Below are positions 3,942 to 54,960 of a stretch of DNA of 54,960 nucleotides, in pieces. The notes beneath the pieces were generated by a model, which saw only the letters and a program-made list of their open reading frames with translations, ran no database searches and was not told the DNA's origin. The stretch's first letter is position 1, and each line of letters begins with the position of its first letter. Source of the stretch: a virus (lineage: Duplodnaviria; Caudoviricetes); IMG/VR virus record IMGVR_UViG_3300030090_005625, positions 1-54,960 of that record. One strand, given 5' to 3'. The position numbers and the translations under genes were made by a program.

Positions 3942-6716
3942 ATGAAAAGTCGTAATCTAATTGCTATGATGATGACTCTACTAACACCGATGATGTTGTT
4001 TGCACAATCGGTAACAGGAACAGTTACATCAGAAGCAGGAGACCCTTTAGCTAATGCTAATATTGTTGTAGTTGGTACTGATTTAGGTACAATTTCAGAT
4101 GAAACTGGAACATTTGTACTTGATTTAGGTGCTGGTGACTATACAATTACAGCTACAGTAATTGGGTTTAAACCACAATCACAACTTGTGAAGATTACAG
4201 AAGCTGATACAGACTTGATGATGGCTTTTGTTCTACCGCTAAACGTGATTGAATTGTCAGACGTTGAAGTTCTTGCTTCAAGAGCTGACGATAAAACACC
4301 TGTTGCTTACACAACCGTTAGTAAAGAAGAGTTAGAAGTTCGTCTTGGTTCACAAGATATTCCGATGGCTTTAAATACTACACCAAGTGTATATGCAACA
4401 CAACAAGGTGGTGGTGCGGGTGATGCTCGTATCAATGTTCGTGGATTCAACCAAAGAAACGTAGCAGTTATGATTAACGGAGTTCCCCAAAATGATATGG
4501 AGAACGGATGGGTTTATTGGAGTAACTGGGATGGAGTAGCCGATGCTGCTAACTCAATTCAGTTACAAAGAGGTCTATCAGCGGTTAATTTAGCTACACC
4601 ATCTATTGGTGGAACCATGAACATCATTACAGACCCAGCTGCAAACGAGAGAGGTGGTAAGTTTAAACAAGAGGGTGGTGCAGGTAATTTCTTGAAAACA
4701 ACTTTTAACTACAATACTGGTTTGATGATGGGTGATAAATTAGCGTTGAGTGGTACACTTGTTCGTAAGACAGGTGATGGTATCATTGATGCTACTTGGA
4801 CAGACGCATGGGCATACTACCTAGGTAGTAGTTTTCAAATGAATGAGAACAATCGATTCGAACTTTACGCGATTGGTGCTCCACAACGACATGGACAAAA
4901 TCTATATAAACAGAACATAGCTACATACTCACAAGATTTAGCTGGGGATATAGATGGATATGACGTTACTGCTTTCGCAGAGGGTAATAAGTTCGAGACA
5001 GAAGCCGGTAGAACATTCAACCAAAATTGGGGGCCTGTAAGTTCCGATTACACAGGTAAACAATACTGGTATATGTATGGTGTCGGTGGATTGTTCGGTG
5101 GTGGAAACCAACCAAGATACAACTCTAACTTTTTGAATGAAAGAGAAAACTTCTTTCACAAACCATTGGTTAACCTTAACCATTTTATGACCATTAACGA
5201 AAAGACAAGACTAAGTTCAGTATTGTATTGGAGTGGTGGTTCAGGTGGTGGAACTGGTACTTATGGTTCATCATTCAGAAAACCAGCAGTTGACGGACAG
5301 AAATGGTATAGAAGTTCACCTTGGGGTTGGGATTGGGATGCAGCTATCGCAACCAACTCTGATAGGGTAGACGCTAACTTTCACGCAACAGAGAATCGTT
5401 CAAAAGGTATTCTTCGTAACTCAATCAACAGACAAAACACTTATGGTTTGATTTCTAAACTTAACTACGATGTTAGTGATGAGTTAGAAATACAAGTCGG
5501 TCTTGATTGGAGAACAGCAGGTATTGAACACGCTCGTGAGGTACGTGACCTACTTGGTGGTGACTATTATGTAGACTACGCCGACGACAACGCACCTGAT
5601 GGTAAAGTTGTTCGTTTAGGTGATGAAATTGCTTATCACAACTCTACAACCGTAGATTGGATTGGTGGATTCTTACAAGGTAACTACACCAAGGATAAAC
5701 TAAACCTATATGGTATGGGTGGATTATCAAGTATTAAATATACTTACCAAGACCACTTTACAGTAGCTAACGAAGTAGTTGAAGCAGATGCTATTTCTAC
5801 TTTCCAAATCAAGGGTGGAGCTATGTATGACGTTGATGATAATGTTAGTGTGTTCGCTAACACAGGATACGTTCAGAAACCACCAATTATGGATAACGTA
5901 ATCTACTATGATGGTACAGTTGCGTCAGACCCATCTAACGAGAAGTTTGTCAGTTCAGAAGCTGGTGTAAATTTCAACACCGAAAATGTAGCAGTCAAAG
6001 TGAGTGCTTACAATACTGATTGGATGGATAGAAACCTAACTAAATCTGTCACAACAGGTCAAGGTGACTCAGGTGATACCGACGTTATTTTCTTGAGTGG
6101 TATCAATCAGAAACACCAAGGTCTTGAGATTGAAGCTTCTATGAAACTTAATGATATGATTCGTTTAGACGGAGCTGTTTCATTTGGTAATTGGAAGTTT
6201 GACGGAGATGCTAAAGGTAACTACCAAGAGAATGAGTATAATGCAGAGGGTCAAGTTATTGGTTTAAAGACCACACCTTACTCTTATGCACTTGATGGAT
6301 TATGGGTAGGTGACATGCCTCAGACAGCTTATGTTATGGGTGCTACACTTACACCAATCAAAGGTCTTAGACTACAAGGTATCTTGAAGATGTACGATAA
6401 GAACTACTCAGATTGGAGTCCAAATGCACGTGAGTATGATGGTAGTGATGCAGACGCTGACAGAAGTCAAGTTTGGATGGCACCAAAGTATAATCGTTTA
6501 GACCTACATGGTTCTTACAAACTACCAAAGATTGGTGGTTTAGATATGAGTGTTAACGCTCATATATTCAACGCGTTAGATGCAGTTTATGTACAAGATG
6601 CCGTTGATAATTCACAGTACAATGGTTTTGGTGATAAACTTCACCTACCACATAACGCAGAGGTATTCTTAGGAACACCACGTTATGCTAATATTGGATT
6701 AGTTGTCAATTTCTAG
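3942..6716 (+). CDS. TonB-dependent outer-membrane receptor with N-terminal carboxypeptidase-regulatory-like domain
   Basis: Signal peptide, VTGTVT..G.PL..ANIVV.GT..GT.SD..G.F domain, plug motif GGGAGDARINVRGF..NVAVMINGVPQND, alternating beta strands, C-terminal Phe. Confidence 0.93.
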   Translation: MKSRNLIAMMMTLLTPMMLFAQSVTGTVTSEAGDPLANANIVVVGTDLGTISDETGTFVLDLGAGDYTITATVIGFKPQSQLVKITEADTDLMMAFVLPLNVIELSDVEVLASRADDKTPVAYTTVSKEELEVRLGSQDIPMALNTTPSVYATQQGGGAGDARINVRGFNQRNVAVMINGVPQNDMENGWVYWSNWDGVADAANSIQLQRGLSAVNLATPSIGGTMNIITDPAANERGGKFKQEGGAGNFLKTTFNYNTGLMMGDKLALSGTLVRKTGDGIIDATWTDAWAYYLGSSFQMNENNRFELYAIGAPQRHGQNLYKQNIATYSQDLAGDIDGYDVTAFAEGNKFETEAGRTFNQNWGPVSSDYTGKQYWYMYGVGGLFGGGNQPRYNSNFLNERENFFHKPLVNLNHFMTINEKTRLSSVLYWSGGSGGGTGTYGSSFRKPAVDGQKWYRSSPWGWDWDAAIATNSDRVDANFHATENRSKGILRNSINRQNTYGLISKLNYDVSDELEIQVGLDWRTAGIEHAREVRDLLGGDYYVDYADDNAPDGKVVRLGDEIAYHNSTTVDWIGGFLQGNYTKDKLNLYGMGGLSSIKYTYQDHFTVANEVVEADAISTFQIKGGAMYDVDDNVSVFANTGYVQKPPIMDNVIYYDGTVASDPSNEKFVSSEAGVNFNTENVAVKVSAYNTDWMDRNLTKSVTTGQGDSGDTDVIFLSGINQKHQGLEIEASMKLNDMIRLDGAVSFGNWKFDGDAKGNYQENEYNAEGQVIGLKTTPYSYALDGLWVGDMPQTAYVMGATLTPIKGLRLQGILKMYDKNYSDWSPNAREYDGSDADADRSQVWMAPKYNRLDLHGSYKLPKIGGLDMSVNAHIFNALDAVYVQDAVDNSQYNGFGDKLHLPHNAEVFLGTPRYANIGLVVNF

Positions 6717-20196: not shown

Positions 20197-20800
20197 TTAT
20201 GGAATAACAGTCCACGATGAGGCTGAAGAACTAAAAAGGTTATTAAATATTCTAACAGATAATATAGATAAAGAAGATGAGATAGTCATTTGTATCGATG
20301 GGGATGATGTAAAAGTAGAGTCAGTCGTAGGTGAATATTTATCTGAAAATGAAGCCATAGTTTATAAAAGAAAACTTGATGGTGATTTTGCTGCACAAAA
20401 AAATTCTGTCATAGAGAACTCTAGTGGTGATTATATTTTTCATATCGACGCTGATGAGTACCCAAGTGATGGTTTATTAGAATATGTCAAGCCTGTTTTA
20501 GAAATAAATAAAGTAGATTTGATTTGGGTTCCACGAGTAAATACTGTTGATGGATTGACCGATGAATATTGTAACAAGTGGGGTTGGAGAATTACGCAAA
20601 ATGGTTGGGTGAATTATCCTGATTATCAGAGTCGTATTTTTAGAAATGATAAATCTATAAGATGGCAAAATAAAGTACATGAAAGAATTTTTGGAGCTAA
20701 AGAATACTCCCATTTACCACCAAATGAAACGTTGAGTTTATATCATCCCAAAACAATTAACAAACAAATAAAACAAAATGAGTTTTACAGTCAAATATGA
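20186..20800 (+). CDS. Glycosyltransferase family 2
   Basis: SYGITVHDE, DFAAQKN, IDADE DxD motif, PDYQ.RIF, VHE; likely GTG start at 20186 with GGAG RBS. Confidence 0.9.
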   Translation: MKLSYGITVHDEAEELKRLLNILTDNIDKEDEIVICIDGDDVKVESVVGEYLSENEAIVYKRKLDGDFAAQKNSVIENSSGDYIFHIDADEYPSDGLLEYVKPVLEINKVDLIWVPRVNTVDGLTDEYCNKWGWRITQNGWVNYPDYQSRIFRNDKSIRWQNKVHERIFGAKEYSHLPPNETLSLYHPKTINKQIKQNEFYSQI

Positions 20801-22452
20801 TAAAAATTAAATTATTAGAACATGAAATTCACAGGAATGAAACAACGTTTCGTCCGTTTTTATTCGCACAAAATACACTACGTGAAGTTGGTATTGAATT
20901 TACAACTTCAGATGATTACGATTATGCTTGGGTTGGACAAGCTAGTATCATTGACAAAAAGAAATCACTAAGAGAATCAATAGATAAGGGACTTGAGTTT
21001 TTATCTGGTCTTAATGGTGATTACATGATAATAGATGGTCAAGACGCCACATCATTGATTGGGACTATTGATGTTTTTAGAGAATCAAACGCACTATTGT
21101 TTTTAAAAAACTCTTATCTAAAAGATTTTGACTTATATAAACAAGGTTGGATGAATGGTAGAATATATTGGGGTGAAGGAGATTATACAGTTCCTGATAT
21201 TGATGAATTAAAACCAAAAATGAAACTAACAGGTTGTAATTGGTTAGGAACAATCAACCCACAAATGATGAATTATAACGCTGATAAAAAATATGATGTA
21301 TCATGCATGTTTAGTTGGGGTGACATTGAGAATTTTGAGCATGATATTCAAACTAATATTCCCTATGATGACCATCGTAGAATACTATTAGAAAAATTAG
21401 AAAAAACTAATTATAACGTGGTTAGAAGAGAATCAGGAGTTCGTATTCCACAACAAGAATTCTATCAAAATATGTATGACTCTAAAATAGTTATGGCTCC
21501 AATAGGATATGGAGAGATGGCAGTTAGAGATATAGAAGCGGCCGGATTCGGTTCTGTTCTGATTAAGCCAGATATGGATTATATTTATTCTAAGCCGTTT
21601 GTTTATGAGGATGGTGAGACTTATATTGCTTGTAAATACGATTGGTCAGACGTTGAAGATAAAATAGATTATGTCTTGTCAAATTATAAAGAATTACAAC
21701 CTTATTTAGTTGAGAATATGAGAAAGAGATTTAAGGAACAATACTCACATGAAAATCTAGCCTTACATTTGTATGATATGTTTAGAAATCTACCGTCAAT
21801 GTCAGTAGAGAATGCAGAAAATACAACCACGGACATTACATTAAATGAAATTGAAAAAATTCAATCGGTGGTCGATATTTGTGATGGTATGTGTTTCGAC
21901 CAATACAAATCTATTTACAATTGTATAAAAGAAAAAAAAGGTTCTAATGTTTTGGTTTTTGGTGTAGGTAGTGATTCAGATTTGTGGCATGAGACGAATC
22001 AAAATGGTAAAACAGTTTTTTTAGAAAATCATGATGAATGGTTAAAAAAAGTCAATCAAGAATCACCTCATTTAAACGTATACGAAATTCAATACACCAA
22101 TAATGGATATGAAGCTGACAAGTTAATGAATGAGTATATTTCAGGAAATCACGATTGTCTTTCTGTGGATTTACCAGATGAAGTTAGGGAGACTAAATGG
22201 GATGTTATTATAGTTGACGCCCCAGCTGCGTGGGATTACAAATACCCTTGTAGAATGAAAAGTATTTATGAAGCTTATAATTTAGCAAAAAATTCAGACC
22301 ACATAGATATTTTTGTACACGATACACATAGAGAAATAGAAATCAAATACTGTGATTATTTTTTAAGACCTAATTTTGATTTTGTTCAAGAGGTTACAGA
22401 CCCACCTGGTTCGCGTTGGGAAGGTCGAAAGTTATTTCATTTTAGAAAGTAG
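20797..22452 (+). CDS. Fusion: GT-B glycosyltransferase + DUF579 (GXM/IRX15-like) polysaccharide O-methyltransferase
   Basis: N-half SKIVMAPIGYGE..RD.EA..G.VLIKP; C-half NVLVFGVGSDS..W...N..GKTVFLE, WDVIIVDAP, RMKSIY.A, IFVHD..R.IE. Confidence 0.8.
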   Translation: MIKIKLLEHEIHRNETTFRPFLFAQNTLREVGIEFTTSDDYDYAWVGQASIIDKKKSLRESIDKGLEFLSGLNGDYMIIDGQDATSLIGTIDVFRESNALLFLKNSYLKDFDLYKQGWMNGRIYWGEGDYTVPDIDELKPKMKLTGCNWLGTINPQMMNYNADKKYDVSCMFSWGDIENFEHDIQTNIPYDDHRRILLEKLEKTNYNVVRRESGVRIPQQEFYQNMYDSKIVMAPIGYGEMAVRDIEAAGFGSVLIKPDMDYIYSKPFVYEDGETYIACKYDWSDVEDKIDYVLSNYKELQPYLVENMRKRFKEQYSHENLALHLYDMFRNLPSMSVENAENTTTDITLNEIEKIQSVVDICDGMCFDQYKSIYNCIKEKKGSNVLVFGVGSDSDLWHETNQNGKTVFLENHDEWLKKVNQESPHLNVYEIQYTNNGYEADKLMNEYISGNHDCLSVDLPDEVRETKWDVIIVDAPAAWDYKYPCRMKSIYEAYNLAKNSDHIDIFVHDTHREIEIKYCDYFLRPNFDFVQEVTDPPGSRWEGRKLFHFRK

Positions 22453-51845: not shown

Positions 51846-52051
51846 CGCATAACATCGCTACAATCCTGAAGAACCTAATGGAGTACGCCGTCAACTCCAT
51901 GAAATCATTCTTGTTGTTCTTTAGTGTGGAGCACAACAAAATGGATTATAGCGATGACGATGACATTCATGAACCAGATGATGACTTCATGGAAGATGAT
52001 GGCGAGGATGACTTCGTGCAATACAAGGGGCCATACTGTGAGACTCCGTAA
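51839..52051 (+). CDS. Small protein with very acidic C-terminal tail
   Basis: In frame of ORF 51812..52051; start uncertain (51839 or 51941); tail MDYSDDDDIHEPDDDFMEDDGEDD. Confidence 0.5.
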   Translation: MLTHNIATILKNLMEYAVNSMKSFLLFFSVEHNKMDYSDDDDIHEPDDDFMEDDGEDDFVQYKGPYCETP

Positions 52052-52190
52052 TCAGATTAGAATCGTTAAGGTGATTTGGTTGGTGTGGATATGCTATATG
52101 GTATCGCTGATGGGTTGCGAGGATACATACGTGATGGGGTATAATAGCAATCTAGAGACGCTCGATACCGATAGTCTGTATGTGCAATGA
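52038..52190 (+). CDS. Small putative lipoprotein
   Basis: GTG start; MRLRNQIRIVKVIWLVWICYMVSLMGC lipobox; CED after Cys as in 49361..49888. Confidence 0.5.
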   Translation: MRLRNQIRIVKVIWLVWICYMVSLMGCEDTYVMGYNSNLETLDTDSLYVQ

Positions 52191-52258
52191 TTTGGTTATT
52201 CAAACGCGTGATGGATTGGATAGAGCAATTCAATACATGGGATGAGTAAAAAAGTTTT

Positions 52259-52486
52259 TTGCTCGAGCTCTGTTGGCCGATTCAAAACAAAGTTTTATTT
52301 CAATGCGTTCTATTTATAATTAATCCGAACGATTTCCAATCATGTGGTTTTGAACTGCATGGAATTAATAATCATCATTATCGTGACCTTGCTCTATTGG
52401 ACTTGGTTGATACGATACCTCAAGAAACACTAACCCACATTAAAAAGCAATACGTCGTTTTTGACACATTTATGGAGTTTTCATAG
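52259..52486 (+). CDS. Hypothetical protein (start uncertain)
   Basis: 75-aa ORF; nearest ATG (52242) is out of frame by one base across A6/T6 runs. Confidence 0.35.
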   Translation: MLELCWPIQNKVLFQCVLFIINPNDFQSCGFELHGINNHHYRDLALLDLVDTIPQETLTHIKKQYVVFDTFMEFS

Positions 52487-52491
52487 GTATG

Positions 52492-52581
52492 CCTACCACC
52501 TTTTCACAATCCCATTCCACAAACACTCCATAACACACCACTCCACTTCTACCCCCCATTCCCCATCTTTCCCCACCTTTT
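52492..52581. other. 90-nt G-free, C-rich tract (G-runs on minus strand)
   Basis: No G on the + strand from 52492 to 52581; C6, C4, C4 runs at 52552-52574. Confidence 0.85.
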
Positions 52582-52675
52582 GATATAGTTTATTACTGGA
52601 GGCCATCCAGAATATCCTGTTATAATATGGTGAAAACTAATACACGTCCGTGACGCCCGGAATTTTTTGCCCTAT

Positions 52676-52772
52676 ATGACGATTTGACATACTTGGATTA
52701 CCTACCCAGTTGATGACAAAATGACAAGCCTGTTATTTTTTTTGCTAATTTTCATGTATGTCATATTGTCAT
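52676..52772. repeat. Three bipartite ATGAC(A)-nn-nTGACA sites (two direct, one inverted)
   Basis: ATGACGATTTGACA 52676-52689, ATGACAAAATGACA 52713-52726, TGTCATATTGTCAT 52759-52772. Confidence 0.7.
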
Positions 52773-52786
52773 GTTGAGCAAAATAG

Positions 52787-52825
52787 AAAAAAGCTCTTGA
52801 CTTTTACTGGCTAATGTCGTATATT
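52787..52825 (+). promoter_or_regulatory. Early promoter P1
   Basis: AAAAAAGCTC-TTGACT(52797-52802)-N17-TATATT(52820-52825). Confidence 0.82.
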
Positions 52826-52891
52826 TGTATGTTGTGGGGTAGGCCTACTACCAGGCCAGTCCAAAAAAACGAAAAAAGCCGTGATTTTTTT

Positions 52892-52931
52892 AAAAAAGCT
52901 CTTGACTTGTATTGTGTGCATACCGTATATT
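52892..52931 (+). promoter_or_regulatory. Early promoter P2
   Basis: AAAAAAGCTC-TTGACT(52902-52907)-N18-TATATT(52926-52931)TAGGTAT. Confidence 0.82.
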
Positions 52932-52969
52932 TAGGTATGAAAAATGATAATAAAACAAAAGGAAACGAA

Positions 52970-53113
52970 ATGAACTACGAAGATTACATGGAATTACTTT
53001 CTGAAGAGATAGGCCAGTCACTTGAAATAGAAGCTATGGAAGAAGCGTTGTCTGATATGGAAGAGGAATATGGTAGTGAGACCGTCAACGATTATATGAA
53101 TTATGGTGTGTAA
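52970..53113 (+). CDS. 47-aa highly acidic early peptide
   Basis: AAAGGA RBS downstream of P2; 15 D/E and no K/R/H; the ORF-track extension to 52814 runs through promoters. Confidence 0.7.
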   Translation: MNYEDYMELLSEEIGQSLEIEAMEEALSDMEEEYGSETVNDYMNYGV

Positions 53114-53125
53114 TAAAAAAAAGTG

Positions 53126-53165
53126 AAAAAAGCTCTTGACACGTATACTGGTTATGTTGTATATT
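53126..53165 (+). promoter_or_regulatory. Early promoter P3
   Basis: AAAAAAGCTC-TTGACA(53136-53141)-N18-TATATT(53160-53165)TAGGTAT. Confidence 0.85.
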
Positions 53166-53185
53166 TAGGTATAAGATTTAGATGA

Positions 53186-53735
53186 GTGGAGAAGGTTTTG
53201 GGTTTCTCATTTCACCCGTTCTTTCCCTTCTCCACAAAAGATTCGAAAGACAAGAAGGGCGTTGATAGGAGATTAATCACCTCCTGAGTCTAATGGAGTT
53301 CTGAGAAACGAAGAGCTGATTACTTGAGTTTTGTTTGAGGGGCTGTAGGGTTCAAATCCCTACCTTGTCTACAAGATTTAAAATTAGAGAGCCGAAATAA
53401 TCCGTAAAGACATCGGCGGTGTGGTGAGACACTTGAAGTGGTATTCGTGATAGGGTTGAATTACGTACTAGAGACCCGAGACAGCCTCTCTTCTAAGTTT
53501 AAAGAGTAGTGGATAAACACCACAAACCCTAGAGCGATAATATCAAACGACGGAGCGTGAGGACTTCCCCACTACTCAAAGAATTAAACAACAAGTGGTG
53601 GGTAAATGGGATACCGACGCGTAGAGACATAGATACTGACGTGTTCCACCACGAAAATTTAGAGTAGTGGAGATATAACGGCTTGGTTCGAATCCAAGAG
53701 ACTTGCAATTTTAATAGGTGATTTCGGTCATCTAT
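53186..53735 (+). ncRNA. Array of structured non-coding RNA domains separated by A-rich linkers
   Basis: Closing stems GTGGAGAAGG/CCTTCTCCAC, AGACAAG/CTTGTCT, AGAGAG/CTCTCT, GAGTAGTGG/CCACTACTC, GTGGTGG/CCACCAC; two T-arm motifs; final TTCG hairpin; no + strand ORF of 60 aa or more. Confidence 0.65.
53248..53371 (+). ncRNA. Non-canonical tRNA-like RNA (124 nt)
   Basis: 7-bp acceptor-like stem + discriminator A; T-arm GTAGGG-TTCAAAT-CCCTAC; enlarged D-arm and no canonical 7-nt anticodon loop. Confidence 0.6.
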
Positions 53736-53782
53736 AAAATACTTATAATAAACAATCAAGCCTGTGAGGTAAAAAGCATTTT

Positions 53783-53953
53783 ATGACATCAGAACGAATA
53801 GACAACATGATAATGAAAGAAATAGTATACGATATAACGGCGGGTAACCTTTTGACCGACGCTGATGACGCAACACTCAGCATGATGTTGCAACACATGC
53901 AACACGTCAAGGAATACTTTCGAGAGAACGGGGTGATAATTGGAGAGGCATGA
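53783..53953 (+). CDS. 56-aa hypothetical protein, not in ORF track
   Basis: GAGGT RBS-like motif; MTSERIDNMIMKEIVYDITAGNLLTDADDATL... Confidence 0.55.
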   Translation: MTSERIDNMIMKEIVYDITAGNLLTDADDATLSMMLQHMQHVKEYFRENGVIIGEA

Positions 53954-54074
53954 CCCACCTGTACTAATTTGTCGTGAATCCAGAAGTATGTCATGCTGTC
54001 ATACGGCTCGGACTCGTCCGCATGTCGAGGTAAGCTTTTTCACCTATAGGAATTAATAAACATCGGTATCACAA

Positions 54075-54281
54075 GTGATAAACACTATTACTAAAACCAA
54101 GAAACTTAAACAATTAAATCTTGCTCAGTTCTATATCCAACTGGTGACAGCTGGTCTTTTTGCGTATTTATCCATACGTGACGCCGACATGGTCAAGATG
54201 TTGATTGCTTTCCTCTTGTTGCTTAGCTGGACATTGGGTTATTGGAGACATAGAATCGTTAGAAGAAGATTAATGAAATAG
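54075..54281 (+). CDS. Small two-TM membrane protein
   Basis: Two hydrophobic segments with basic ends. Confidence 0.6.
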   Translation: MINTITKTKKLKQLNLAQFYIQLVTAGLFAYLSIRDADMVKMLIAFLLLLSWTLGYWRHRIVRRRLMK

Positions 54282-54290
54282 GAGTTATGA

Positions 54291-54473
54291 ATGAGTAAAA
54301 AGAAATTAAAGGTTGGTGATTTCGTCTATCCAACATTACCAGGCGTCATGGAACCAGGTGACCCATGTTATGTTGTGGAAAAGATAGATGGTGATATGCA
54401 TACAATCGTTCAAACAATCAAGCACTACAAGAGCACGTTGGTCGTTCCCTCTAGTAAGCTCAGGAGGTTGTGA
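54291..54473 (+). CDS. Small SH3/KOW-like hypothetical protein
   Basis: AGGAG RBS; LKVGDFV start and beta-rich pattern. Confidence 0.6.
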   Translation: MSKKKLKVGDFVYPTLPGVMEPGDPCYVVEKIDGDMHTIVQTIKHYKSTLVVPSSKLRRL

Positions 54474-54718
54474 TGAGCATAATGGACGCGTTAAGGATTA
54501 TGTGCGAGTATTTCGATGATGATAGGGCACTAGGGGAGTACGTGCGTATGCTGACCGAGATACCGCAAGGGAGTTTGGATTTAAAGGAATTCAAAATGGA
54601 TTTATCGGACTTCAGAACTAAACATTTTGCGGATGATTTCCACGAGGGGAAGCAAACCCAGTCATTCACGCTGGATGAATTATTGAAAAACACAGGGATT
54701 ACCAAAAATGAACAATGA
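54470..54718 (+). CDS. Hypothetical protein
   Basis: AGGAGG RBS, overlap with upstream stop. Confidence 0.6.
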   Translation: MMSIMDALRIMCEYFDDDRALGEYVRMLTEIPQGSLDLKEFKMDLSDFRTKHFADDFHEGKQTQSFTLDELLKNTGITKNEQ

Positions 54719-54908
54719 TAATTATGACCCTCTTCTCTGGTATAAACAAACTATAGAGCGTATGTCTTGGGATGAGATACAGGATTTGATGACTGAACGA
54801 ATACAAAATGGTTCTTGGGATAATTTCGTCAAGACTCTGGGTAAACCACCACACGTTATAAAGCATGATTACTTCATAAAGCAGATGAACAAGGATAAAC
54901 ATGAATAA
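54708..54908 (+). CDS. Hypothetical protein
   Basis: 66-aa ORF overlapping neighbours. Confidence 0.55.
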   Translation: MNNDNYDPLLWYKQTIERMSWDEIQDLMTERIQNGSWDNFVKTLGKPPHVIKHDYFIKQMNKDKHE

Positions 54909-54960
54909 AAAAAAATTAACCTCACCGATTGACTCAATAGTTATAGACATGATACTTGAC

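What the first reader, a model, noticed from the sequence alone, without database searches (positions are those of the whole stretch)
53248..53371. tRNA mimic with perfect acceptor and T arms but rebuilt D and anticodon arms
Seen: AGACAAG/CTTGTCT 7-bp stem plus unpaired A, with a 6-bp T-stem GTAGGG/CCCTAC around a canonical TTCAAAT loop (13 bp stacked versus the usual 12). The D-like stem GGGC/GTCT encloses an extra AGGAG/CTCCT hairpin. The AGTTCT/AGAGCT arm has a 9-nt loop, and no CCA is encoded. Established: the acceptor-T helix is what RNase P, CCA-adding enzyme and EF-Tu read, and tmRNA and Y RNAs mimic it. Inference: a non-decoding tRNA mimic, or a processing signal that releases the flanking RNAs.
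Basis: partly seen in the sequence, partly recalled or inferred. Interest (0 to 1): 0.72.

Follow-up and report, generated by a model that had tools for sequence, protein, structure and literature searches.

The report
Conserved tRNA-shaped RNA cassette in phage
A large marine phage carries a conserved 124-base RNA that copies the acceptor and T arms of a tRNA but cannot decode, and it sits as one movable cassette in a promoter-driven string of small structured RNAs where related phages keep ordinary tRNA and tmRNA genes.

Summary
The described stems are all in the window at 53248-53371. A Watson-Crick T arm with an adjacent 7-bp acceptor arose in only 7 of 500 shuffles. ARAGORN and Rfam do not call it a tRNA, tRNA-Sec or tmRNA.

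It is not a decaying pseudogene. Two metagenome contigs (L202, L197) hold a copy about 80% identical, and L185 holds a near-identical partial copy. All 36 modelled pairs are kept. Between window and L202, all 10 stem differences are transitions, against 4 of 18 in unpaired columns.

Homologs support the acceptor, T arm, D-like stem and its inner hairpin.

The element is one cassette in a roughly 570-nt non-coding array behind a sigma-70-like promoter. Cassette order and content differ between relatives, and some relatives have true tRNAs and a tmRNA around the shared cassette SL-A.

Best reading (confidence 0.55): a non-decoding tRNA-like small RNA, cut out by tRNA-processing enzymes. Its own function is unknown; a decoy role is inference only. 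RNA-library contigs hold it, but transcription is not proven.

The parts
53136..53165 (+). Sigma-70-like promoter (TTGACA, 18 nt, TATATT) heading the non-coding array. The same box, within a conserved AAAAAAGCTCTTGAC context, also lies at 52797 and 52902.
   Evidence: 11 of 12 consensus positions; repeat families D1-D3. Similar boxes head the arrays of L005, L060, L166 and L202. Promoter activity is inferred, not shown.
53186..53235 (+). Cassette H: a 10-bp hairpin, GTGGAGAAGG/CCTTCTCCAC, with a 30-nt pyrimidine-rich loop.
   Evidence: I16, 100% complementary. L190 has an H-like copy (two 17-nt exact blast matches). L166, L197 and L202 have a variant stem GTGGTGAGG/CCTCACCAC with a U-rich loop in the same place before E1.
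53236..53247 (+). Conserved 5' leader AAAAGATTCGAA directly before the acceptor stem (L197 and L202: AAGAATTCGAA).
   Evidence: Alignment A2.
53248..53371 (+). E1, the flagged tRNA-like RNA: acceptor 53248-54/53364-70, two unpaired A, D-like arm, linker AAUGGA, long anticodon-side arm, U53344, T arm, discriminator A53371.
   Evidence: Homologs: L202 869-992, L197 740-863, L185 (partial).
53257..53291 (+). Extended D-like arm: stem GGGC/GTCT, internal loop, inner hairpin AGGAG/CUCCU with loop AUUAAUCAC. It contains a 19-nt stretch, TAATCACCTCCTGAGTCTA, identical in all full copies.
   Evidence: helices 2 and 3: 27 of 27 cells paired; changes G.U to A-U, C-G to U.G and A-U to G.U.
53274..53279 (+). 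UAAUCA in the D-side hairpin loop, complementary to UGAUUA at 53317-53322. Proposed loop-loop (kissing) helix.
   Evidence: helix 4: 6 pairs, invariant. A match of 6 nt or more between hairpin loops arose in 3074 of 200000 loop shuffles. Noticed after the fact; no covariation is possible because both sides are invariant.
53298..53343 (+). Anticodon-side arm in the conserved model: closing stem GUUCU/GGGGC, irregular interior, 3-bp cap GAG 53313-15 / CUU 53323-25 and 7-nt loop CUGAUUA 53316-22.
   Evidence: helix 5: 15 of 15 cells paired; helix 6: 9 of 9 cells, with 2 pairs changed on both sides. The rival first-reader arm 53297-302/53312-17 has 14 of 18 cells paired. In the window copy alone the rival is lower in energy, -29.1 against -25.1 kcal/mol without the kissing term.
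53345..53363 (+). T arm: 6-bp stem GUAGGG/CCCUAC with loop UUCAAAU (UUCGAAU in L202 and L197).
   Evidence: helix 7, invariant.
53372..53383 (+). A/U-rich linker CAAGATTTAAAA, the point where cassette neighbours change between genomes.
   Evidence: L202 and L197 diverge from the window right after CTTGTCT. RNA-library contigs leave the window's order at 53375 (X4) and 53383 (X2).
53384..53496 (+). Cassette M3, a conserved structured module.
   Evidence: 4 sequences, 30 predicted pairs, 1 compensatory. In L189, L198 and L199 it follows SL-A instead of preceding it.
53504..53577 (+). Cassette SL-A: 74 nt, a 9-bp closing stem GAGTAGTGG/CCACTACTC, and invariant GGATAAACACCAC and GTGAGGACTTCC.
   Evidence: 20 distinct true sequences; compensatory changes at 4 stem positions. 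It lies between true tRNA-Ala and tRNA-Thr in L187, L193 and L200.
53595..53652 (+). Cassette SL-B: GTGGTGG/CCACCAC closing two inner hairpins.
   Evidence: 4 sequences, 18 pairs, 4 with compensatory change. Absent from L005 and L185.
53662..53704 (+). Cassette M6, a second and minimal T-arm element: GAGU, AGUGGAGAUAUAACGG, T arm CUUGG-UUCGAAU-CCAAG (53682-53698), AG, ACUU.
   Evidence: The T stem covaries across contigs (CTAGG/CCTAG, CCGGG/CCTGG, TCAGG/CCTGA, ACTGG/CCAGT).

Best explanation
E1 (53248-53371, + strand) is a gene for a non-decoding, tRNA-shaped small RNA.

Proposed mechanism:
1. It is transcribed from the sigma-70-like promoter at 53136-53165 as one cassette of a roughly 570-nt non-coding transcript, in the order H, E1, M3, SL-A, SL-B, M6.
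2. Its acceptor/T helix (7+6 bp with a canonical T loop) is the handle by which tRNA-processing enzymes free it from its neighbours. RNase P would cut before A53248. A 3' endonuclease or exonucleases would trim after A53371 in the A/U-rich linker, followed by CCA addition.
3. The released RNA of about 124 nt folds as a four-way junction. Its remodelled D-side hairpin loop (UAAUCA) pairs with the 7-nt loop (UGAUUA) capping an over-long anticodon-side arm.
4. With no anticodon arm of tRNA dimensions and a 13-bp acceptor domain, it cannot serve in decoding. It most likely acts as a stable tRNA look-alike that occupies a host or phage tRNA-binding factor.

What is shown: the stems exist, they are conserved with structure-preserving substitutions, the element behaves as a discrete cassette, and it is held in RNA libraries.

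What is inferred: promoter use, the cleavage sites, CCA addition, the kissing helix, and the decoy role.
For: 1. Structure conserved under divergence. Alignment A3 holds the window, L202 and L197.
- 108 of 108 cells form standard pairs for 36 modelled pairs. Versions with the 3' partner slid by 1-3 columns give 38-53%.
- Window against L202: 10 differences in 60 stem columns, all transitions. In 55 unpaired columns there are 18 differences, 14 of them transversions or indels. In the 12 kissing columns there are none. Fisher p = 1.5e-4.
- Ten random transitions placed in the stems keep all 30 pairs in 1257 of 100000 trials.
- Six G.U pairs in the window copy would be A.C on the other strand, so the constraint is on + strand RNA.

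2. tRNA-like but not a tRNA.

3. Discrete cassette in a modular array. Similarity to L202 and L197 runs from the 5' leader to the last acceptor base and then stops. Cassette content and order differ between contigs. L005 and L060 keep the downstream cassettes but lack E1.

4. tRNA-processing context. In L187, L193 and L200 the shared cassette SL-A lies between a true tRNA-Ala and tRNA-Thr, 1-4 nt from each, beside a true tmRNA scoring 98-108 bits.

5. RNA-library contigs from 4 runs of 3 studies lie on E1 with 0-1 other letters: X1 53170-53360, X2 53186-53336 and 53333-53383, X3 53142-53303, X4 53122-53272. The tool warns that DNA can be present in such libraries.

6. Precedent, from passages read. 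A tRNA-like domain with a 7-bp acceptor stem in M. smegmatis YrlA is cut by RNase P and gains CCA (PMC4201824). Plant mitochondrial t-elements direct RNase P and RNase Z cuts (PMC1920247). The 13-bp acceptor domain of tRNA-Sec goes with 100-fold weaker EF-Tu binding, attributed there to its 8-bp acceptor stem (PMC7609411).
Against: - Only two independent lineages carry full copies. L202 and L197 differ from each other at 2 positions.
- Helices 5 and 6 were chosen on the same alignment that is used to score them.
- Shuffle control (a) is only 38 of 500.
- Folding energies are not better than shuffles.
- The kissing helix is invariant, so it has no covariation support, and it was noticed after the fact (loop-shuffle frequency 1.5%).
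- RNA-library contigs also start upstream of the predicted transcription start (53115, 53122, 53142). So neither the start nor transcription itself is shown.
- No RNA ends, no RNase P cut and no CCA were observed.
- No tRNA-related protein gene lies nearby. 0 of 10 neighbouring ORFs gave an RNA-processing hit in PHROGs, and none of the 10 larger proteins scanned in Pfam did either.
- E1 is missing from close relatives (L005, L060), so it is dispensable for this phage group.
Confidence: 0.55

Rival explanations
1. Pure punctuation. E1 has no function of its own and exists only as a tRNA-like cleavage signal that lets RNase P and 3' enzymes separate the neighbouring small RNAs, like plant mitochondrial t-elements.
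For: It has a perfect acceptor/T helix with a canonical T loop. It sits between other cassettes. SL-A is flanked by true tRNAs in L187 and L193. t-element precedent: PMC1920247.
Against: The parts that a processing signal does not need are the most conserved. These are the 19-nt invariant block in the D-side arm and the invariant UAAUCA and UGAUUA loops. Arrays in L005, L060 and L166 work without E1. The much smaller M6 element would do for punctuation.
Confidence: 0.15
2. A decaying tRNA pseudogene, or a remnant of a tRNA or tmRNA gene, with no present function.
For: Relatives carry true tRNA and tmRNA clusters. E1 is absent from some close relatives. Folding z-scores are unremarkable.
Against: 0 of 36 modelled pairs are broken in any of 3 sequences at about 80% identity. 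Stem changes are transitions only, 10 of 10, against 4 of 18 in unpaired columns. The insertions are themselves conserved.
Confidence: 0.05
3. An unusual but working decoder. The 7-nt loop CUGAUUA would present anticodon GAU (Ile), or an intron is removed to give a normal tRNA.
For: A 7-nt loop with U at the second position, closed by a covarying 3-bp stem. At lowered thresholds ARAGORN makes calls that use E1's T arm: 'Val(tac)' 53293-53369 at 70%, and 'Ile(aat)' 53257-53372 with a 25-nt intron at 60%.
Against: The relaxed calls come with 4-5 other mutually overlapping calls on both strands. The arm is far longer than 5 bp. Position 37 is U and position 8 is A. There is a 1-nt variable region. 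The D loop carries a 27-nt insert. The acceptor domain is 13 bp. No tRNA match was found in Rfam at E<=10. Short spliceosome-free tRNA introns are not known in bacteria (recalled, not from a call).
Confidence: 0.03
4. A cis-acting leader, such as an attenuator or riboswitch-like element, controlling the downstream 56-aa ORF (53783-53953) or neighbouring genes.
For: It lies downstream of a promoter and upstream of a conserved small ORF. It holds an SD-like AGGAG paired to CUCCU.
Against: E1 is separated from that ORF by four other cassettes. In L202 and L197 it precedes a different ORF. Its neighbours change between genomes. L005 and L060 keep the ORF without E1.
Confidence: 0.05

Closest known systems
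Plant mitochondrial t-elements (tRNA-like processing signals); PMC1920247, passages read
   Same: Non-canonical cloverleaves with a conserved GGTTCRANYCC T arm and an acceptor stem, embedded in longer transcripts. They are cut by RNase P and RNase Z and gain non-encoded C/CA.
   Different: t-elements punctuate mRNAs in an organelle. E1 sits in a phage array of non-coding cassettes, has a 13-bp acceptor domain, and has strongly conserved extra arms. No ends were mapped for E1.
Bacterial and phage YrlA Y RNAs (tRNA mimics); PMC4201824, passages read
   Same: A non-coding RNA with a tRNA-like T arm, D arm and acceptor. The 7-bp-acceptor form is cut by RNase P and CCA-tailed. Also reported in 22 bacteriophages.
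   Different: YrlA is defined by a Ro60-binding stem, a GNCGAAN0-1G motif and a TROVE gene within about 4 kb. No TROVE match was found in the window, there was no Rfam match, and the leader TTCGAAAG does not fit the motif.
Murine gammaherpesvirus 68 vtRNAs/TMERs; PMC4337559, passages read
   Same: Viral tRNA-like RNAs that are not aminoacylated, clustered in the genome, and co-transcribed with other small structured RNAs.
   Different: A eukaryotic Pol III system with pre-miRNA hairpins. There is no sequence or host relation. The likeness is analogy only.
tRNA-Sec; PMC7609411, passages read
   Same: A 13-bp acceptor plus T domain.
   Different: tRNA-Sec is 8/5 or 9/4, with a UCA anticodon, a long variable arm and a 6-bp D stem. 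E1 is 7/6 and has none of the rest.
tmRNA tRNA-like domain
   Same: Acceptor plus T arm, with the anticodon arm replaced by a long irregular helix. True tmRNAs occur at the equivalent locus of related contigs. L202 and L197 have G3.U70.
   Different: The window copy has A3-U70. There is no tag reading frame, no pseudoknot series, and no ARAGORN or Rfam call.
Phage T4 stable RNAs 'species 1 and 2' of the tRNA cluster (recalled from memory; search found no paper on them in the library)
   Same: Small stable non-tRNA RNAs encoded among phage tRNA genes and matured with them.
   Different: No sequence was compared here. The likeness is a lead only.

Membership tests
tRNA (Rfam RF00005 / ARAGORN) | Scores as a tRNA with standard detectors | tested here: not met
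   ARAGORN default: 0 genes in the window. Rfam gathering: 0 matches. At E<=10, no tRNA match on 52000-54960 or on 53235-53385.
tRNA (Rfam RF00005 / ARAGORN) | 7-bp acceptor stem and a T arm with a T-Psi-C-type loop | tested here: met
   conserved in L202 and L197.
tRNA (Rfam RF00005 / ARAGORN) | 12-bp acceptor domain (7/5), a D arm with a loop of about 7-11 nt, a 5-bp anticodon stem with a 7-nt loop, a variable region of 4 nt or more, and U8 | tested here: not met
   The domain is 7/6 = 13 bp. There are 27 nt between the D-stem strands. The anticodon-side arm spans 46 nt. There is 1 nt before the T arm. Position 8 is A.
Intron-containing tRNA | Removing one insert leaves a canonical cloverleaf | tested here: not met
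   ARAGORN -i at default thresholds calls nothing at E1. Only thresholds at 70% or lower give mutually overlapping calls.
tRNA-Sec | 13-bp acceptor domain | tested here: met
   7+6 stacked pairs, though not in the 8/5 or 9/4 split described in PMC7609411.
tRNA-Sec | UCA anticodon, long variable arm, 6-bp D stem with a 4-nt loop | tested here: not met
   Sequence and consensus structure. No Rfam tRNA-Sec match.
tmRNA | Detector call, G3.U70, a tag reading frame and pseudoknots | tested here: not met
   No call. A3-U70 in the window, G3.U70 only in L202 and L197. At a 70% threshold ARAGORN gives a 'permuted tmRNA' spanning the whole gap, which was judged to be noise.
YrlA / bacterial Y RNA | Neighbouring Ro60 (TROVE) gene, a GNCGAAN0-1G motif, and a Ro-binding stem | tested here: not met
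   No TROVE match in the 54,960-base record. The record is a fragment, so absence from the phage is not shown. No Rfam match.
tRNA pseudogene (neutral decay) | Stem-breaking substitutions at the rate of unpaired sites | tested here: not met
   0 broken cells of 108. Stems carry 10 transitions and 0 transversions; unpaired columns carry 4 and 14.
tRNA-like processing element (t-element type) | Acceptor stem plus a GGTTCRANYCC T arm inside a longer transcript | tested here: met
   GGGTTCAAATCCC at 53348-53360, lying in a non-coding array behind a promoter-like site.
tRNA-like processing element (t-element type) | RNA termini coincide with the element's ends; cut by RNase P or RNase Z | not testable with these tools
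   Only contigs of RNA libraries were available, and these cannot show ends.

The most novel reading that the evidence does not exclude
E1 is one member of an undescribed system. Large marine phages would carry promoter-driven, recombining arrays of small structured RNA cassettes that stand where relatives have a tRNA/tmRNA cluster.

The cassette types seen are:
- tRNA look-alikes that all have a 13-bp acceptor domain (E1 7/6, E2 8/5, the L022 element 7/6);
- a minimal T-arm element (M6);
- modules like a tmRNA pseudoknot;
- SL-A.

In this reading E1 is a purpose-built tRNA decoy. It is kept out of the elongation cycle by its 13-bp domain, and it is locked by an internal codon-anticodon-like loop-loop helix (AUC in the D-side loop with GAU in the 7-nt loop). 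It would titrate a host tRNA-directed factor such as an anticodon nuclease or a modification enzyme.
Probability: 0.25. Interest if true: 0.85.

Novelty: new variant of a known kind. Interest (0 to 1): 0.62.

Why it matters
Phage tRNA genes are usually discussed as codon supplements or as replacements for tRNAs cut by host defences (PMC10264068, seen only as a search listing and abstract start). Here a phage lineage carries conserved tRNA-shaped RNAs that cannot decode, alongside other structured cassettes with no Rfam family. They sit at the locus where its relatives keep true tRNAs and a tmRNA.

If they are processed and stable, they form a new class of phage small RNAs that borrow the host's tRNA maturation path. 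They would also offer a tractable case for three questions:
- what a tRNA mimic does in a bacterial infection;
- how a 13-bp acceptor domain is used outside selenocysteine decoding;
- how RNA cassettes are shuffled between phage genomes.

A catalogue of candidate structured RNAs in IMG/VR exists (PMC10690425, passages read).

Tried and rejected
**Similarity and pattern searches that found nothing new**
- A DNA search of 53100-53800 against deposited phages found no match.
- Exact-pattern scans of IMG/VR found no further E1. The patterns were E1's T arm plus acceptor (0), its 17-mer AATCACCTCCTGAGTCT (11 loci, of which 0 of 11 are E1 and all lie in coding sequence), and a three-motif E1 pattern (0).
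- The same three-motif pattern and the SL-A pattern found nothing in genome contigs, so there is no clue to the host.
- The 15-mer and 17-mer scans gave mostly chance matches. Of the 165 loci then held, only L060 (new) and L160 (the L005 contig again) matched the query array well on BLAST; L062 gave one 29-nt match at E = 0.006.
- The anchor-protein scan returned only the two known contigs.
- Model R1 on the whole records behind L005-L009 gave nothing better than E = 0.2, and that hit lies inside coding sequence.
- Of the 32 metagenome loci, four (L176, L177, L180, L183) are chance matches and were dropped from all counts.

**Readings considered and dropped**
- SL-A as a tmRNA tag frame (GCG ATA ATA TCA AAC GAC GGA GCG TGA): dropped because SL-A coexists with a true tmRNA in L187, L193 and L200.
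- SL-B plus M6 as tRNA-Trp with a 21-nt intron (ARAGORN -i): dropped because the acceptor has 2 mismatches and does not covary, and M6 persists without SL-B in L005 and L185.
- TAAGTTT (53496-53502) pairing with AGACTTG after M6: no support in L005 or L060.
- The anti-Shine-Dalgarno look of AUCACCUCCU (53276-53285). The likeness to the 16S rRNA 3' end is recalled, not from a call. It occurs once in the window, and 10 of 100 shuffles have one, so it is not significant. Shine-Dalgarno cores do precede 27 of 58 ORF starts, against 11% of random sites.
- The linker motif A[AG]ATTT[AG][AG] is too common in this A/T-rich DNA to mean anything by count.

**Read-laying**
- The runs gave no cover over 52700-52915 or over 53726-54300. 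X1-X3 gave none beyond 53401. This is not evidence of anything.
- Contigs cannot show RNA ends or strand.
- X1 record 6 looks like a further E1 variant with a different 5' acceptor strand and a different anticodon-side interior. Only 21 and 30 of its unmatched letters were shown, so it could not be used.

**Other**
- A mistyped structure (3' strand one column off) was corrected.
- My hand-typed L202 structure string had the wrong length, so its energy line is void.
Full report
**What the window is.** The window is a complete IMG/VR virus record of 54,960 bases, rated about 11% complete. It encodes a DnaB-like helicase, a class II ribonucleotide reductase, a family B DNA polymerase, a TonB-receptor-like protein and many glycosyltransferases. 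The last 6 kb is a run of small ORFs behind repeated sigma-70-like promoter boxes. Between the ORFs ending at 53113 and starting at 53783 lies the only long non-coding gap I found. The finding sits in it, downstream of TTGACA-18-TATATT at 53136-53165.

**Checking the observation.**
- Under strict criteria (Watson-Crick T stem, TTCRANN loop, adjacent 7/7 Watson-Crick acceptor), such a pair of helices arose in 7 of 500 dinucleotide shuffles of the window. Under loose criteria with G.U allowed it arose in 56 of 200.
- Folding energy alone is unremarkable: z = -1.54 for the window copy and -0.04 for the L202 copy.
- Standard detectors reject it. ARAGORN gave 0 genes. Rfam gave 0 matches at gathering scores. 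At E<=10 there was no tRNA, tRNA-Sec, tmRNA or Y-RNA match, on 3 kb or on 151 nt. The only matches on the T arm were to the hairpin alone (mascRNA 13.5 bits against a gathering score of 42.5, and Plastid-psbl-rps4 14.2 against 68 on the opposite strand).
- ARAGORN with introns allowed makes no call at E1. Only at thresholds of 70% and below does it produce several mutually overlapping calls on both strands.

**Relatives.** A scan with the neighbouring 192-aa HNH-like protein brought 28 related viral loci.
- Only L005 matched the non-coding gap, and it lacks E1. There the promoter is followed at once by the sequence that corresponds to window 53494 onward. L060 is similar.
- I anchored on the most conserved downstream cassette (SL-A) and scanned the viral and metagenome collections. 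Of the 32 metagenome loci, 28 are true and 4 are chance matches.
- Among these, L202 and L197 carry E1 at about 80% identity. L185 carries a near-identical copy cut by the contig end.
- A covariance model of E1 searched over 60 sources (588,120 bases) found these four at 80-156 bits. After them come only weak matches of 19 bits or less, to true tRNAs and to other tRNA-like modules.
- Further pattern scans found no more copies.

**Is the structure under selection?** RNAalifold on the three full copies gives a four-way junction:
- a 7-bp acceptor;
- a D-like stem GGRY/GUCU enclosing the RGGAG/CUCCU hairpin;
- a closing stem GUUCU/RGRGC that abuts the T arm with 1 nt between them;
- a 6-bp T arm.

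For this model, with a 3-bp cap stem and a loop-loop helix added, 108 of 108 cells are standard pairs, against 38-53% when the 3' partners are slid. Two pairs changed on both sides, both in the cap stem under the 7-nt loop. Seven changed on one side through G.U.

Between window and L202, the 60 stem columns carry 10 differences, all transitions. The 55 unpaired columns carry 18 differences, 14 of them transversions or indels. The 12 loop-loop columns carry none. The Fisher test on transitions against transversions gives p = 1.5e-4. Ten random transitions in the stems keep all pairs in only 1.3% of trials. Six G.U pairs place the constraint on the + strand RNA.

Caveats:
- There are only two independent lineages.
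- The anticodon-side helices were chosen on the same alignment.
- Shuffle control (a) reached the observed values in 38 of 500 shuffles.

The AGUUCU/AGAGCU arm keeps only its inner four pairs in L202 and L197 (14 of 18 cells). The distal pairing is kept throughout. In the window copy alone the proximal arm is 4 kcal/mol more favourable, so the two may compete.

In the distal model the arm ends in a 7-nt loop, CUGAUUA. Its UGAUUA (53317-53322) is the exact complement of UAAUCA (53274-53279) in the D-side hairpin loop. Both are invariant, while the 3-bp stem below the loop covaries. A match of this length between shuffled loops arose in 1.5% of trials. I found it after the fact, so it is a hypothesis.

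**Context: a modular array.** The gap holds six stem-closed cassettes separated by A/U-rich linkers.

| Cassette | Window coordinates |
|---|---|
| H | 53186-53235 |
| E1 | 53248-53371 |
| M3 | 53384-53496 |
| SL-A | 53504-53577 |
| SL-B | 53595-53652 |
| M6 | 53662-53704 |

- SL-A has 20 distinct sequences with compensatory changes at four stem positions.
- SL-B has four compensatory pairs.
- The T stem of M6 covaries.
- M3 is conserved.

Content and order differ between contigs:
- L005: SL-A, M6.
- L060: SL-A, SL-B, M6.
- L189 and L199: SL-A, M3, M6.
- L202 and L197: other modules, SL-A, H-like hairpin, E1, M6. In L202 a second promoter box lies before E1.
- L185: as the window, but without SL-B.

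RNA-library contigs join E1 to yet other neighbours. X2 joins it to a module like the one after SL-A in L166, with the change at 53383. X4, a relative with 6-7 other letters per side, joins it to SL-B by a joint from 53375 to 53583. E1 therefore behaves as a discrete cassette whose 3' boundary lies within 12 nt of its acceptor end.

In L187, L193 and L200, SL-A lies between a true tRNA-Ala(TGC) and a true tRNA-Thr(TGT), followed by a true tmRNA (98-108 bits) and a tRNA-Glu. A small module of the arrays (GGTGGGTT..GACTACC.ATTTGGAAC) also occurs inside that tmRNA. The array thus stands at what is, in relatives, a tRNA/tmRNA cluster, and there its shared cassette SL-A sits 1-4 nt from tRNAs on either side, where their processing would release it.

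**Other tRNA look-alikes.** Two more elements are missed by ARAGORN but have an acceptor and a T arm.
- E2 in L173 and L174 has an 8-bp acceptor and a 5-bp T stem. Both the acceptor and a stem capped by a 10-nt loop show compensatory changes.
- An 81-nt element in L022 (14549-14629) has 7/6 helices.

Like E1, both stack 13 pairs. By contrast, 19 of the 20 ARAGORN-confirmed tRNAs that the same scan picked up were listed with a 12-pair (7/5) stack; the exception is a 'tRNA-Pyl(CTA)' in L021 listed at 13. In tRNA-Sec a 13-bp domain accompanies weak EF-Tu binding, which the review attributes to the 8-bp acceptor stem (PMC7609411). Whether that transfers to a 7/6 split is unknown.

**Expression.** Contigs from four RNA libraries of three studies, labelled seawater or marine plankton metagenome where a label is given, lie on E1 and its leader with 0-1 other letters. 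The tool warns that DNA can be present in such libraries and that contigs show no ends. Some contigs start upstream of the predicted start site. I count this as weak support for expression.

**How it most likely works.** See Best explanation. In short, the acceptor/T helix lets the host's tRNA maturation enzymes cut E1 out of the array transcript. The rebuilt arms, locked by a loop-loop helix, carry whatever the RNA does. It cannot decode. The nearest precedents are YrlA (RNase P cut and CCA addition on a 7-bp-acceptor mimic, PMC4201824), plant mitochondrial t-elements (PMC1920247) and the non-aminoacylated vtRNAs of gammaherpesvirus 68 (PMC4337559). A decoy role against tRNA-directed host factors is inference only.

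**Novelty.** The family is in none of the 4227 Rfam 15 models. Six library searches showed no paper describing such arrays or this element. The supplements of the IMG/VR structured-RNA catalogue (PMC10690425) could not be opened, so prior listing there cannot be excluded. I rate it a new variant of a known kind: tRNA-like non-coding RNA. The cassette-array setting is the less expected part.

Noticed in passing
window 53504-53577 (SL-A); also L005, L060, L166 and 28 metagenome loci: A 74-nt RNA closed by a 9-bp stem that covaries at 4 positions. It has invariant GGATAAACACCAC and GTGAGGACTTCC and no Rfam family. There are 20 distinct sequences. In L187, L193 and L200 it lies between true tRNA-Ala and tRNA-Thr, next to a true tmRNA. 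It looks like a widespread phage small RNA matured with tRNAs.
   Followed up: partly
window 53662-53704 (M6); L005, L060, L172, L182, L189, L197, L202: A minimal T-arm element: the conserved single strand AGUGGAGAUAUAAC (D-loop-like, with GG), a covarying 5-bp T stem, a UUCGAAU loop, and a 3-4-bp pseudo-acceptor GAGU/ACUY. A variant with 6/6 helices lies on the minus strand of the L005 record (L214, about 575-640).
   Followed up: partly
L173 331-400 and L174 1122-1194 (E2); L022 14549-14629: Further tRNA-like modules missed by ARAGORN. They have 13 stacked acceptor plus T pairs (8/5 and 7/6). E2 has a covarying stem capped by a 10-nt loop.
   Followed up: partly
window 53595-53652 (SL-B): A Y-shaped cassette with a conserved 16-nt loop, AGAGACAUAGAUACUG, on a covarying 6-7-bp stem. 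It is present in L060, L173 and L188 and absent from L005 and L185. Together with M6 it is called tRNA-Trp with an intron by ARAGORN -i, which I judge spurious.
   Followed up: yes
arrays of L166, L175, L192 and L174; tmRNA of L193 and L187: A small module, GGTGGGTT-stem-GACTACC-N-ATTTGGAAC-stem, recurs one to three times per array. It also occurs inside the true phage tmRNA just before that RNA's tRNA-like 3' end. This suggests that array cassettes and tmRNA pseudoknots share ancestry.
   Followed up: no
window 52787-52826, 52892-52938, 53126-53172: Three copies of a promoter cassette of about 47 nt, AAAAAAGCTCTTGAC...GTATATTTAGGTAT. The same box heads the arrays and small early-type ORFs of related contigs.
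   Followed up: partly
L021 and L031, 3126-3200: A related viral contig encodes a tRNA with anticodon CUA, which ARAGORN labels 'tRNA-Pyl'. It is a possible amber suppressor tRNA.
   Followed up: no
window 3942-6716 and 20797-22452: A phage-borne TonB-dependent-receptor-like protein (CarboxypepD_reg plus Plug domains) and a protein with an IRX15/GXM-type domain, within a long run of glycosyltransferase-like genes.
   Followed up: no
window 53276-53285: AUCACCUCCU inside the D-side hairpin of E1 equals the usual 3' tail of bacterial 16S rRNA (recalled, not from a call). It is paired to an SD-like AGGAG. One occurrence in the window is not significant, since 10 of 100 shuffles have one.
   Followed up: yes
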